Source: Haliotis rubra (lineage: Eukaryota). From it: DNA of 64,000 nucleotides. How positions within the stretch are numbered: position 1 is the first letter of the stretch; each line of letters starts with the position of its first letter. The stretch spans positions 1,302,001 to 1,366,000 of the forward strand of contig NW_025766026.1 of the NCBI RefSeq assembly GCF_003918875.1. The letters are read 5' to 3'. The position numbers are program-made. Positions 27,001 to 30,000 of this stretch are shown here, piece after piece.

Positions 27001-30000
27001 TAACGCTTGTCATCGTATCCCAACTACACTTCGATGCTCATATTGTCGATCACTGGATTGTCTGGTACAGTCTTGATTATTTACAAACCGCAAAAATAAA
27101 AGTTTAATTACTAATTTGATCAATCTAGAATTCGTATTTGAGAGTTTGTCCGATCCTTACTTGCCTCTTATATTCGTTTGATTTCTTAAAGCCTATTGGA
27201 TATTTCCACAGTCACCCCAAACCATGCGCCATCAGTACAAGCGATGACGTCGACCTAAAGCGTCATCTAAACGACATTGGGACATTTAACATGCAAGATA
27301 TGACTCTATCACATCATTTATGAATAAATATGAATATGATCCATGGTAAAGGAACGATTCATGGGTGTAAAATGTAAAATATTCACATCATGTTTACAGT
27401 GCCAAGTGTTTCTGGTTCCAGACGCCAATGGCACCGTGACGTCAATGGACGTCGCGCCCTGCCCCGTGCAGCCATGCGTGTTCCATAAGGGCGACAACGC
27501 CACTGTCAAAATCTGTTTCACGGCACGTGAGTACTTTTCTCCAGTTACCATTAAACATTCTTAATATATGGTTTTATTAATATCTAAAATTGTTTGGTGG
27601 TAACTAAGTTTCTTATATACCTTTGTTTAATTATACACAAGCAGTGGTTCGCCTGTATGATTAGAGGATATATAGTACCCTGTTTCAGAAGGAATACATG
27701 TATTTCATTTTTTTAAACTTTTAGCATATACCTCTCCATGGGTATCTCTGACATGTTATCTTTGAAAATCAATAAATTTCCCCATTTCGGTTCAAATGTA
27801 CAACAATTCGAATATGGTAAAAAATGTTATACTTTCTTTTGCCCTTCGGGAAATTTTTCTTTTTTCACACGGCAGCAGCGGTGAACCTATCTCGATTTGA
27901 ATGTTCATGCTAATTAAAAACATTTTCAATTTGTGTTCATTTGTTCACAAAATACCGGTTTCAGCTGCGTCGTCCAATAACTTGACAGCTGAGATTGATG
28001 GGGTCGTGGCGGGGATCCCAGTCAAGTTCCCCATGCCGAACCCAAACGGCTGTTACCAGTCCGGCATCGGGTGCCCCATCTCCAAGGGCCAGACCTATTG
28101 CTACACCAACAACCTGGCAGTGCTGCCGTCATACCCCTCGGTAACTGATGATACTCCTCTCGTTAGCTTTAGTACCGTTATTTACACAGTTATAGAGAAC
28201 GTGTACATATACCCTCCTGCCGCCCAATCTACATCATATTATGTACAATCACCACATGTTGTTCCAGATCCGGCTCGTGGTCAAATGGTCACTCTTTGGG
28301 GACGACAAGGTCCCTGAGTTCTGCGTCCTGTTCCCCGTGGAGATAGATGGTGCTGGGAGGGACACTCCCACGGGGAGAGGGGTAGACACGCCCAGGGAGA
28401 GGGAGGTAGACACGCCCACGGGGAGGGAGGTAGACACGCCCACGGAGAGGGAGGTAGACACGCCCACGGAGAGGGAGGTAGACACGCCAACGGAGAGGGA
28501 GGTAGACACGCCCAGTCGTAAAGACGGGAATATTGAATGACTACTCCATGTGCAGTTTCAGTCCTGGGTCTTCCGCATTACCATGGAGACCAAGAGCAAC
28601 ATCCCCTGACCCCGTGGTTCTCACTGTCTCCACAGCCCCAGAGAATAAATTAATTAAGGAGTCAAAGTCGAGAATGATTGGGCAAGTGTAGACTGCCTCC
28701 GTTCAAGGCATGAAATAAAGAATTCCTTTTGGATAACCGCCATATAGCTGGAATATTGCTGAGTGCGGCGTAAAACAACAAGCTTCTGGATTATGTTTGT
28801 TTTTCATCTGGTAGAGATATGTTTTAACTAGAACAACTATGTAAGACTAAATGCCTACCTTTTTGTCAGCTTCCATAACTACTGTGATTGTGAGGTTGGA
28901 CATCGTGTCAGTGTCATAGGTCTTGTTGCACTTCCATTTCAATACAATTTTGCATTAGTCTGACACATTTGAACGATTTAGTGTATATATGATGTTTTAT
29001 TAATGGATTTGTATGTTTTGTGCTTCTGTAAAAACCTGTTCTCCTGCTCGTGTGCTGTACATGCGTTATAGGTATAAACCTACAATGTATATGTTTTAAA
29101 TGGATTTGTATGTTTTGGCTTCTGTAACAACCTGTTCTCCTGCTCGTGTGTTGTACATGTGACTGGGCGAAACGTTCGTTATAGGTATAAACCTACATTG
29201 TATATGTTTTAAATGGATTTGTATGTTTTGAGCTTCTGTAAAAACCTATTCCCCTCCTCGTGCGCTGTACATGCGACTGGGTGAAACGTATACATTGTAA
29301 ACCTTATCTTCATATTAAAAATGATAGCGACCAAAATGCGATAAATTATCTGAATTCCACACAAATAGCAGAAGATGAGAGCAAAGTCAGAATTCTAGTC
29401 ACGAGGCGAGTATTGTAACTCCAGGTCAAACTAATCGTGGCTAGTTAGTTTCTCCAGTCACGTGTACACCATATTTGGTTCATGCCCTGAACCAGTAATA
29501 ATATAGACACAAAGCTTGGTTGGTTACAAATTGCCTTTTTAATATAAGTCTCCATGTTTGTTTTGTGTATATATTTGAAATAAACAATATTACAGTTTTC
29601 TAAAATGTGAGAAGGCTCATTGTTTTTGAATAACCGTGAACCCAATTAAAATATTCTATGATCACGTGGCTTACAGGCTTTGAACTTAGTCAAACCCAGT
29701 CTAAGTAAACTTAAGCTCAGTATTATTCGTTACACTGCTTATAGCGAGACTGAGTCATACCATATTCTTTAGTGAGTGAGTATGCCATCAACATCATGGC
29801 GGGAGACACCAGAAAATGGGTTTCACACATTGTATCCACGTGAAGGATCGAACCAGGGTCTACGGCGTGACGAGCGAACGCTTTAACCATTAGGCTACCC
29901 TACCCCCACATTGGTCCTGTGACTGAGCCAAGTCGAGACCATCTGATGAGTGAGTATGGTTTTAAGCCGCTTTTAGCAATATTCCAGCAATATCACGGCG

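What the first reader, a model, noticed from the sequence alone, without database searches (positions are those of the whole stretch)
28340..28540. NPC2 copy 4 carries a C-terminal tail of about 60 aa built from an (EVDTPTER) coding minisatellite
Seen: copy 1 stops at PAEITD*, whereas copy 4 continues past PVEID into about 7 in-frame 24-bp units rich in T/P and charged residues, ending RKDGNIE*. Known: NPC2/ML proteins normally end right after the last strand. Inference: a disordered, possibly O-glycosylated and length-polymorphic tail on a secreted sterol or lipid binder.
Basis: partly seen in the sequence, partly recalled or inferred. Interest (0 to 1): 0.65.

Follow-up and report, generated by a model that had tools for sequence, protein, structure and literature searches.

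The report
NPC2 gene with minisatellite-encoded tail
One of four neighbouring sterol-carrier (NPC2) genes in this animal genome runs without a stop into a short 24-base tandem repeat, which should add a floppy, acidic 63-residue tail to an otherwise standard protein; it is a real but probably young and minor variation.

Summary
The window holds four ML/NPC2 genes. Copy 4 (22719-28540, + strand) is an intact four-exon gene with GT-AG introns and a signal-peptide exon. Its exons align in order to bovine NPC2 chain 1nep_A up to residue 129 of 130. There the other three copies stop within 0-1 residues. Copy 4 reads on for 63 codons to a TGA at 28538-28540.

The extension is mostly a 24-bp minisatellite at 28361-28514, with 6.4 copies, 92% matches and TRF score 259. 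The unit occurs nowhere else in the window and in 0 of 100 shuffles. The tail is (DTPTEREV)n: pI 4.4, net charge -8, 44% charged, 32% Ser/Thr/Pro, no modelled secondary structure.

Nothing shows selection on it. Five of six frames of the unit are open. Unit variants are 3 synonymous and 4 non-synonymous (P = 0.22). No orthologue, transcript or population data could be reached.

Best reading: a young, slippage-generated, frame-preserving C-terminal appendage on a canonical NPC2, probably translated and at most modulatory. O-glycosylation and length polymorphism remain untested. Interest is modest.

The parts
22719..22800 (+). Copy 4 exon A: start codon, hydrophobic leader, then ...INFKNC plus 1 base. 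Donor is G|GTGAGA (phase 1).
   Evidence: One search found it as the only Met-ORF ending in Cys plus a phase-1 GT donor in 19000-27420. One search confirmed it. It resembles exon A of copies 2 and 3, which end ...FEDCG. It had no PDB hit on its own.
27422..27526 (+). Copy 4 exon B. Acceptor ttccag|AC, with an alternative in-frame acceptor 15 nt upstream at 27407. Donor is C|GTGAGT (phase 1). It holds the APC...QPC cysteine pair, one extra Cys (27514) and the sequons NGT and NAT.
   Evidence: It aligns to bovine NPC2 1nep_A residues 13-43 (E 9e-6) and to human 5kwy_C residues 12-43.
27965..28140 (+). Copy 4 exon C, the core of the ML domain. Acceptor tttcag|CT, donor TCG|GTAACT (phase 0).
   Evidence: Pfam PF02221 at E 9.9e-10, 39.3 bits. 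It hits human NPC2 5kwy_C and 6w5v_D and bovine 1nep_A at E 6e-14 to 1.4e-12, chain residues 48-102.
28268..28348 (+). Copy 4 exon D, first 27 codons. This is the last strand region of the ML fold (IRLVVKW...EFCVLFPVEID).
   Evidence: It aligns to 1nep_A residues 103-129 of 130. The E-value alone is weak (1.3), but the hit is colinear with exons B and C. It aligns with the last exons of copies 1-3. The acceptor ttccag|ATC is at the same phase-0 position in all four copies.
28349..28537 (+). 63-codon C-terminal tail in the same exon and frame, with no intervening stop.
   Evidence: No Pfam family at E up to 1. No credible PDB match. No ESM Atlas lead; best score 0.83.
28361..28514 (+). 24-bp minisatellite: six full units and the start of a seventh, each coding DTPTEREV or a variant.
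   Evidence: TRF score 259, 92% matches. Units shown in register. The unit is unique to this place.
28538..28540 (+). TGA stop codon of copy 4, 23 nt after the end of the array.
28644..28719 (+). Two AATAAA hexamers (28644 and 28714), 104 and 174 nt after the stop. They are likely poly(A) signals of the terminal exon. None lies within the repeat.
   Evidence: The function is inferred.
2350..2436 (+). Comparator: last exon of copy 1, ending ...PAEITD then TGA.
   Evidence: Pfam ML profile positions 109-133 of 133.
11096..11182 (+). Comparator: last exon of copy 2, ending ...VKLAW then TGA.
14704..14790 (-). Comparator: last exon of copy 3, ending ...IQVLW then TGA.

Best explanation
Copy 4 is an intact, canonical-type NPC2 gene: a signal peptide, an ML beta-sandwich that carries sterol or lipid, and three introns. 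A 24-bp minisatellite has grown in its terminal exon, at or just past the end of the fold.

The period is a multiple of three, and the unit has no stop in the frame in which the gene enters it. So the reading frame runs on for 63 codons to the first TGA beyond the array. Gains or losses of units by replication slippage or unequal exchange would lengthen or shorten the tail but never frameshift or truncate the ML domain.

The predicted product is a normal NPC2 core with a flexible, acidic (net -8), Thr/Pro-containing appendage at its C-terminus. I judge the tail to be evolutionarily young and probably translated. It is most likely tolerated rather than required. If it has an effect, that effect is modulatory (charge, solubility, hydrodynamic size, perhaps glycan attachment) and does not add a new activity.

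Shown: the gene structure, the family, the open frame, the array and its uniqueness, and the composition. Inferred: translation, youth, near-neutrality, the slippage origin and any effect on the protein.
For: - Gene integrity. There are four exons with canonical GT-AG sites and phases 1/1/0 that match copies 2 and 3. Exon lengths sum to 636 nt, which is 211 codons plus a stop.
- Family. PF02221 matches exon C. Exons B, C and D hit one solved NPC2 chain (1nep_A) at residues 13-43, 48-102 and 103-129 of 130.
- Copy 4 is the most NPC2-like of the four. Its exon C scores E 6e-14, against 4e-10 for copy 1 and 2e-3 for copy 2.
- The paralogues stop 0-1 residues after the aligned end of the fold.
- The array. 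Period 24, 6.4 copies, 92% matches. Units 4 and 5 are identical and unit 6 differs by one synonymous base. The 5' units are the most diverged, the usual picture of a recently expanded or homogenised array.
- No AATAAA lies before the stop. Two lie 104 and 174 nt after it.
- Tail properties. pI 4.44, net charge -8, GRAVY -1.62, on the disordered side of the charge-hydropathy boundary. No helix or strand is modelled after residue 22 of the exon.
- No sign of constraint. Variants are 3 synonymous and 4 non-synonymous, where 17 of 72 possible changes are synonymous (P = 0.22). Five of six frames of the unit are open.
Against: - No transcript, protein, orthologue or second allele was available, so translation of the tail is a prediction from DNA alone.
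- Each unit contains GAG|GTAGAC, which resembles a splice donor. A plausible acceptor (tgcagtttcag|) lies 16-19 nt after the stop. Processing that removes part of the array cannot be excluded.
- With only seven variant sites, the synonymous/non-synonymous test has almost no power. It fails to show selection but does not show neutrality.
- The AlphaFold2 pLDDT in the tail is 51-79, not below 50, so that model does not positively call it disordered.
- I could not show how the original stop was lost. The paralogues' 3' flanks share no DNA similarity with copy 4. The flanks of the array are no more unit-like than shuffles: 759 of 2000 and 1593 of 2000 shuffles reach the observed score.
Confidence: 0.6

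Rival explanations
1. The tail is a selected functional module. One version is an O-glycosylated, negatively charged spacer that changes where this NPC2 goes (secreted rather than lysosomal) or what it sticks to (cations, mineral or mucus matrices, a partner protein). Repeat number would then tune the effect.
For: - The tail sits on the most conserved, vertebrate-like copy of the four.
- The frame used is the one giving a Thr/Pro/acidic peptide, with 12 Thr each next to a Pro.
- The tail has no Cys and no hydrophobic stretch that would disturb folding of the core.
- All three third-position differences among the units are synonymous.
Against: - There is no statistical signal of constraint (3 synonymous and 4 non-synonymous, P = 0.22).
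- Only 32% of residues are Ser/Thr/Pro, against 44% charged, which is atypical for mucin-like stretches (from general knowledge).
- No Pfam, PDB or ESM Atlas relative was found.
- None of the three paralogues has anything similar.
- No described NPC2 with such a tail turned up in four literature searches, nor in passages of two NPC2-expansion papers.
Confidence: 0.2
2. The tail is not made. Either copy 4 is silent or decaying, or its mRNA is processed so that the repeat is untranslated. Possible routes are use of the donor-like GAG|GTAGAC in the units with a downstream acceptor, or another 3' end.
For: - Donor-like sites recur in every unit, and an acceptor-like site follows the stop.
- The first intron is 4.6 kb long and carries a transposase remnant, so the locus has been disturbed.
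- Openness of the frame is expected by chance in 2 of 3 + strand frames.
Against: - All four exons are intact and in phase, with good splice sites, a leader peptide and the family's cysteines.
- Splicing out of the array would not restore a stop after PVEID. It would only swap one tail for another (read from the sequence).
- There is no poly(A) hexamer between PVEID and the stop.
Confidence: 0.13
3. The array or its length is an assembly artefact.
For: Tandem repeats are the places where assemblers err. The window contains an N gap elsewhere, at 51426-51623.
Against: The array is only 154 bp long and its units are individually distinguishable: 5 of the 6 full units carry the differences listed. 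It is flanked by unique sequence. Ordinary reads would span it. At most the copy number could be off.
Confidence: 0.04

Closest known systems
Canonical metazoan NPC2 (solved structures of human NPC2 5kwy_C and 6w5v_D, bovine 1nep_A and 2hka)
   Same: - ML-domain fold family. Exons B, C and D align colinearly to residues 13-129 of the 130-residue bovine chain.
- The cysteines in the aligned regions are conserved.
- It has a leader peptide.
- It has three introns, the trait that Hambleton et al. 2019 (PMC6548501, passage seen) use to define canonical NPC2.
   Different: - A 63-residue repeat tail follows the position where the solved chains end.
- There are two additional cysteines (27514 and 28099).
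- Sterol binding was not tested.
Paralogues in the same cluster (copies 1-3 of this window)
   Same: Same exon-intron plan, and the same phase-0 acceptor for the last exon. All match the ML domain.
   Different: They stop 0-1 residues after the end of the fold. They share only 30-41% identity with each other over the last exon and no 3' flank similarity with copy 4.
Coding minisatellites (VNTRs) in secreted proteins, such as mucin PTS repeats (general knowledge, recalled)
   Same: Head-to-tail units with a period that is a multiple of three. The array is in frame and Thr/Pro-containing, and it is predicted to be unstructured. Array length can change without a frameshift.
   Different: It is short (6.4 units) and sits at the very C-terminus of a small lipid carrier. 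It is dominated by Glu, Asp and Arg (44%) rather than Ser, Thr and Pro (32%). Neither glycosylation nor polymorphism has been shown.
Lineage-specific NPC2 expansions: cnidarian 'non-canonical' NPC2 (PMC6548501) and Clonorchis sinensis NPC2-like genes (PMC6979364)
   Same: Several tandemly arranged NPC2 genes in one genome, with diverged copies beside a conserved one.
   Different: The cnidarian non-canonical copies are intronless (passage), whereas all four copies here have introns. Neither paper's main text contains the words C-terminal, C-terminus (cnidarian paper only), extension or repeat in this sense. Their supplements could not be seen.

Membership tests
ML domain / NPC2 family (Pfam PF02221) | Significant match to the family profile | tested here: met
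   Exon C alone scores 39.3 bits against a curated cut-off of 22.7, E 9.9e-10, covering profile positions 45-107 of 133. The exon D peptide of 90 aa gave no Pfam hit by itself.
ML domain / NPC2 family (Pfam PF02221) | Colinear similarity to solved NPC2 proteins over the whole fold | tested here: met
   Exon B aligns to 1nep_A residues 13-43 (E 9e-6). Exon C aligns to residues 48-102 (E 1.4e-12). The exon D core aligns to residues 103-129 (E 1.3, weak alone). Exon A had no hit.
ML domain / NPC2 family (Pfam PF02221) | Conserved cysteine framework of the fold | tested here: met
   Cysteines at 27460, 27475, 28051, 28072 and 28322 align with cysteines of the solved chains. The first one (22797...FKNC) matches ...FEDC of copies 2 and 3. 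Two extra cysteines lie at 27514 and 28099.
ML domain / NPC2 family (Pfam PF02221) | N-terminal signal peptide (secreted or lumenal protein) | tested here: inconclusive
   Exon A codes a Met followed by a hydrophobic stretch and an A-Q-A motif before the mature-like ...INFKNC. No signal-peptide predictor was available.
ML domain / NPC2 family (Pfam PF02221) | Binds sterol or another lipid in the beta-sandwich pocket | not testable with these tools
   This needs a binding or transfer assay.
Canonical NPC2 in the sense of Hambleton et al. 2019 | Three shared introns | tested here: inconclusive
   Copy 4 has three introns, and their positions and phases match copies 2 and 3. Whether they are the same positions as in other metazoans was not tested. 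The definition comes from a passage seen.
Coding minisatellite (VNTR) | Head-to-tail array of 10-100 bp units, far beyond chance | tested here: met
   TRF reports period 24, 6.4 copies and score 259. The unit matched 0 times in 100 shuffles.
Coding minisatellite (VNTR) | Lies inside an open reading frame of a real gene, with a period that is a multiple of three | tested here: met
   It lies in the same exon and frame as the ML strand, with no stop until 28538. Being open is expected by chance in 5 of 6 frames.
Coding minisatellite (VNTR) | Copy number varies among individuals | not testable with these tools
   No population or second-haplotype data were available.
Mucin-like (PTS) O-glycosylated region | Composition dominated by Pro, Thr and Ser | tested here: not met
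   20 of 63 residues (32%) are Ser, Thr or Pro, against 28 of 63 (44%) Asp, Glu, Lys or Arg. The threshold for 'dominated' is from general knowledge, not from a call.
Mucin-like (PTS) O-glycosylated region | Carries O-glycans | not testable with these tools
   No glycosylation predictor or experimental data were available.

The most novel reading that the evidence does not exclude
The repeat tail is a functional, length-tunable addition that turns the conserved housekeeping NPC2 of this animal into a differently behaving carrier. Possibilities include a heavily O-glycosylated or cation-binding extracellular form, or one whose tail gates access to the sterol pocket or to the NPC1 partner. The minisatellite would supply heritable variation in that property.
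Probability: 0.12. Interest if true: 0.55.

Novelty: new variant of a known kind. Interest (0 to 1): 0.3.

Why it matters
NPC2 is a compact, strongly conserved sterol carrier whose solved forms end right at the last strand. A natural version with a repeat-coded disordered tail would be a small example of a protein gaining a new terminus through minisatellite growth without risking the folded domain. If the tail proved to be conserved or glycosylated, it would point to a lineage-specific change in how sterol carriers are sorted or presented. As it stands it is an annotation-level curiosity. It warns gene predictors not to trim the tail, and it flags a probable length-variable marker.

Tried and rejected
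- **Unit derived from the native C-terminal coding sequence (PVEID...).** Rejected. Local alignment of the 60 nt upstream and the 60 nt downstream against three consensus units scores no better than shuffles (759 of 2000 and 1593 of 2000 shuffles reach the observed score).
- **Locating the ancestral stop from paralogues.** This led nowhere. Copy 1 and copy 4 share only the first 21 nt of the last exon at DNA level, and nothing in the 3' flank has E below 2.5.
- **Array as part of a dispersed transposable element.** Not supported. The array and the 3' UTR (28541-28736) are unique in the window. Only a 45-bp SINE-like core at 28737-28781, downstream of both AATAAA hexamers, is repeated.
- **Relatives of the tail peptide.**
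  - Pfam gave no hit.
  - PDB gave only chance-level hits with E above 1.
  - The ESM Atlas best score was 0.83, below the level the tool calls more than a lead, with no family.
- **Fold of exon D alone.** pTM 0.14 and mean pLDDT 64. This is too poor for a fold search, so none was run.
- **A fifth ML copy.** Exon HMMs built from the four copies find only those four. The next best piece has E 0.05-0.09.
- **Exon A of copy 1.** Not found in 1-1128. It probably lies left of the window.
- **Literature.** Six searches gave listings only, plus passages from PMC6979364 and PMC6548501. None showed an NPC2 with a repeat tail.
- **The one allowed scan of bacterial and archaeal genome contigs.** Not used, because it cannot bear on an animal gene.
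Full report
**What the window is.** The window is animal genomic DNA of about 42% G+C, rich in tandem and dispersed repeats. I do not take it for human. It holds four tandem NPC2-type genes with short introns, and their exons are only distantly similar to human NPC2 chains. One run of 198 N at 51426-51623 was left alone.

**The observation.**
- Copy 1's last exon ends ...PAEITD, followed by TGA at 2434-2436.
- Copy 4's last exon starts at 28268 after a ttccag acceptor and codes IRLVVKWSLFGDDKVPEFCVLFPVEID.
- It then continues, without a stop, through GAGRDTPTGRGV, DTPREREV, DTPTGREV, three DTPTEREV units and DTPSRKDGNIE, to TGA at 28538-28540.
- Tandem Repeats Finder reports 28361-28514, period 24, 6.4 copies, 92% matches, no indels and score 259.
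- The consensus unit with up to three mismatches matches five times, all inside the array, and matched nowhere in 100 shuffles.
- Neither the unit nor the tail peptide occurs elsewhere in the window.

**The gene family and the gene model.** tblastn with exon peptides and exon HMMs run over the six-frame translation find exactly four ML-domain genes:
- copy 1, + strand, exons at about 1129-2436 (its first exon was not found and probably lies off the window);
- copy 2, + strand, 9276-11182;
- copy 3, - strand, 16920-14704;
- copy 4, + strand, 22719-28540.

Pfam PF02221 (ML domain) matches exon C of all four copies. Copies 1 and 4 score above the curated cut-off; copies 2 and 3 score just below it as single exons.

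For copy 4, every boundary is a canonical GT-AG site:
- exon A 22719-22800 (leader peptide, ...INFKNC, phase-1 donor);
- exon B 27422-27526 (an alternative in-frame acceptor lies at 27407);
- exon C 27965-28140;
- exon D 28268-28540.

The exon lengths add up to 636 nt, which is 211 codons plus the stop. The joined protein was never built, searched or folded, so no whole-protein model exists here.

**Where the fold ends.** The three later exons hit one and the same solved chain, bovine NPC2 1nep_A (130 residues), in order:
- exon B to residues 13-43 (E 9e-6);
- exon C to residues 48-102 (E 1.4e-12; human chains 5kwy_C and 6w5v_D at E 6e-14 and 1e-13);
- the 27-residue core of exon D to residues 103-129 (E 1.3 on its own).

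So the ...PVEID of copy 4 corresponds to the last residues of a solved NPC2. Copies 1, 2 and 3 stop zero or one residue after that aligned position. By exon C score, copy 4 is the most NPC2-like of the cluster (6e-14, against 4e-10 for copy 1 and 2e-3 for copy 2). Copy 3 was not searched against the PDB.

**The tail as a peptide.** It has 63 residues: Thr 12, Glu 10, Arg 9, Asp 8, Pro 7, Gly 6, Val 6, and one each of Ala, Ser, Lys, Asn and Ile.
- Its pI is 4.44, net charge -8, GRAVY -1.62, and the fraction of charged residues is 0.44. It lies on the disordered side of the charge-hydropathy boundary.
- Ser, Thr and Pro make up 20 of 63 residues, and charged residues 28 of 63. It has no Cys, no aromatic residue and no N-glycosylation sequon.
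- A single-sequence AlphaFold2 run on exon D gives two short strands in the ML part and no secondary structure from residue 23 to 90. With pTM 0.14 and pLDDT 51-79 in the tail, this agrees with an unstructured tail but does not prove it.
- There is no Pfam family, no credible PDB match and no ESM Atlas lead (best 0.83).

**Is it coding by more than accident?** Three points.
- Openness of the frame is weak evidence. The consensus unit is free of stops in five of six frames. A period divisible by three occurs in 7 of the 34 TRF rows of this window.
- Among the six full units there are seven differences from the consensus, three synonymous and four non-synonymous. Since 17 of 72 possible single changes are synonymous, three or more of seven has P = 0.22. 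There is therefore no detectable purifying selection, but the test has very little power.
- If the terminal exon is used as predicted, the tail must be translated, for three reasons. The acceptor is at the same phase-0 position in all four copies. No stop and no AATAAA lie between PVEID and 28538. The first AATAAA hexamers follow at 28644 and 28714.

Each unit contains a donor-like GAG|GTAGAC, and an acceptor-like tgcagtttcag follows the stop. Alternative processing is therefore conceivable, but it would replace the tail rather than restore a stop after PVEID.

**Origin.** Units 4 and 5 are identical. Unit 6 differs by one synonymous base. The 5' units carry most of the changes. That pattern fits a young or recently homogenised array. 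I could not reconstruct how the ancestral stop was lost.
- The paralogues are too old to align at DNA level beyond the first 21 nt of the exon.
- The flanks of the array are no more similar to the unit than shuffled sequence.
- The array is not part of a repeat dispersed in the window.

**Interpretation.** The best-supported reading is a canonical NPC2 whose terminal exon has acquired a slippage-generated, frame-preserving minisatellite, predicted to append a disordered acidic tail to an unchanged sterol-carrier core. I hold that the tail is probably translated and probably young. Any function is more likely modulatory than essential (confidence 0.6).

The rivals are a selected functional module (0.2), a tail that is never made (0.13) and an assembly error (0.04).

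By composition the tail is more an acidic polyampholyte than a mucin-like stretch.

**What stayed unchecked.**
The open DNA collections hold only bacteria, archaea, phages, plasmids and E. coli.
- As a result, orthologues, transcripts and alleles of this animal gene could not be examined.
- Paper supplements were closed. Supplementary file 1 of PMC6548501, a list of NPC2 homologues, might show tails in other species.
- In the literature I saw only search listings and passages of PMC6979364 and PMC6548501. None mentions an NPC2 with a C-terminal repeat.

**Verdict.** It is a new variant of a known kind and of modest interest (0.3).

Noticed in passing
window 30326-38114 (+) and 51687-54410 (+): Two sets of exon-like ORFs match successive parts of the Pfam Dak1 domain (dihydroxyacetone kinase / triokinase). 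This suggests a tandemly duplicated Dak-type gene just downstream of the NPC2 cluster. The second copy starts right after the N gap.
   Followed up: no
window 24601-25538 (+), with 23093-23231 and 26962-27098: The 4.6-kb first intron of copy 4 holds ORF pieces matching a DDE_Tnp_4 (PIF/Harbinger-type) transposase. It also holds direct repeats about 3.87 kb apart and inverted or tandem repeat blocks at 24262-24388 and 26252-26517. A transposon insertion probably explains why this intron is far longer than in copies 2 and 3.
   Followed up: partly
window 28737-28781, and at least 20 other places (e.g. 10424-10463, 17419-17462, 21644-21685, 62278-62320): A roughly 45-bp core of a very abundant dispersed, SINE-like element lies 200 nt after copy 4's stop and throughout the window. 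The two Rfam tRNA hits, at 39478-39550 (-) and 17736-17794 (-), may be tRNA-derived heads of such elements. From recall only, similar elements are common in mollusc genomes. The organism was not determined.
   Followed up: partly
window 27514-27516 and 28099-28101: Copy 4 has two cysteines beyond the family's framework (in ...KICFT... and ...TYCYT...). In the alignments, the mammalian chains have Val and Ser at these positions. They might form a fourth disulfide. This was not modelled, because the joined protein was not built.
   Followed up: no
window 27407 versus 27422: Exon B of copy 4 has two in-frame acceptor AGs 15 nt apart. The upstream one would add five residues (VFLVP) between the first two cysteines. 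The downstream one gives a spacing closer to copies 2 and 3.
   Followed up: partly
window 12713-13255 (+) and 32711-33205 (+): There are further transposase remnants. A DDE_3 (Tc1/mariner-like) piece lies between copies 2 and 3, which face each other's tails. A hAT dimerisation-domain piece lies inside the first Dak-type gene region.
   Followed up: no
window 45159-46565, 38867-39028, 42079-42252 and 43637-43838: A block of larger satellites lies between the two Dak-type copies. It includes a 67-bp unit with 18.8 copies (95% matches), a perfect 23-bp unit with 7 copies, and 53-bp and 76-bp arrays. Strong positive GC skew marks 38-48 kb.
   Followed up: no
window 28337-28351 and each unit of 28361-28514: Recalled motifs only, likely coincidence. 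The junction reads VEID|G and the units read EVD|T, which resemble caspase recognition tetrapeptides. At DNA level each unit contains CGCCCACGG, one base off the EGR/Krox-type site. Neither was tested, and a lumenal protein would not normally meet caspases.
   Followed up: no
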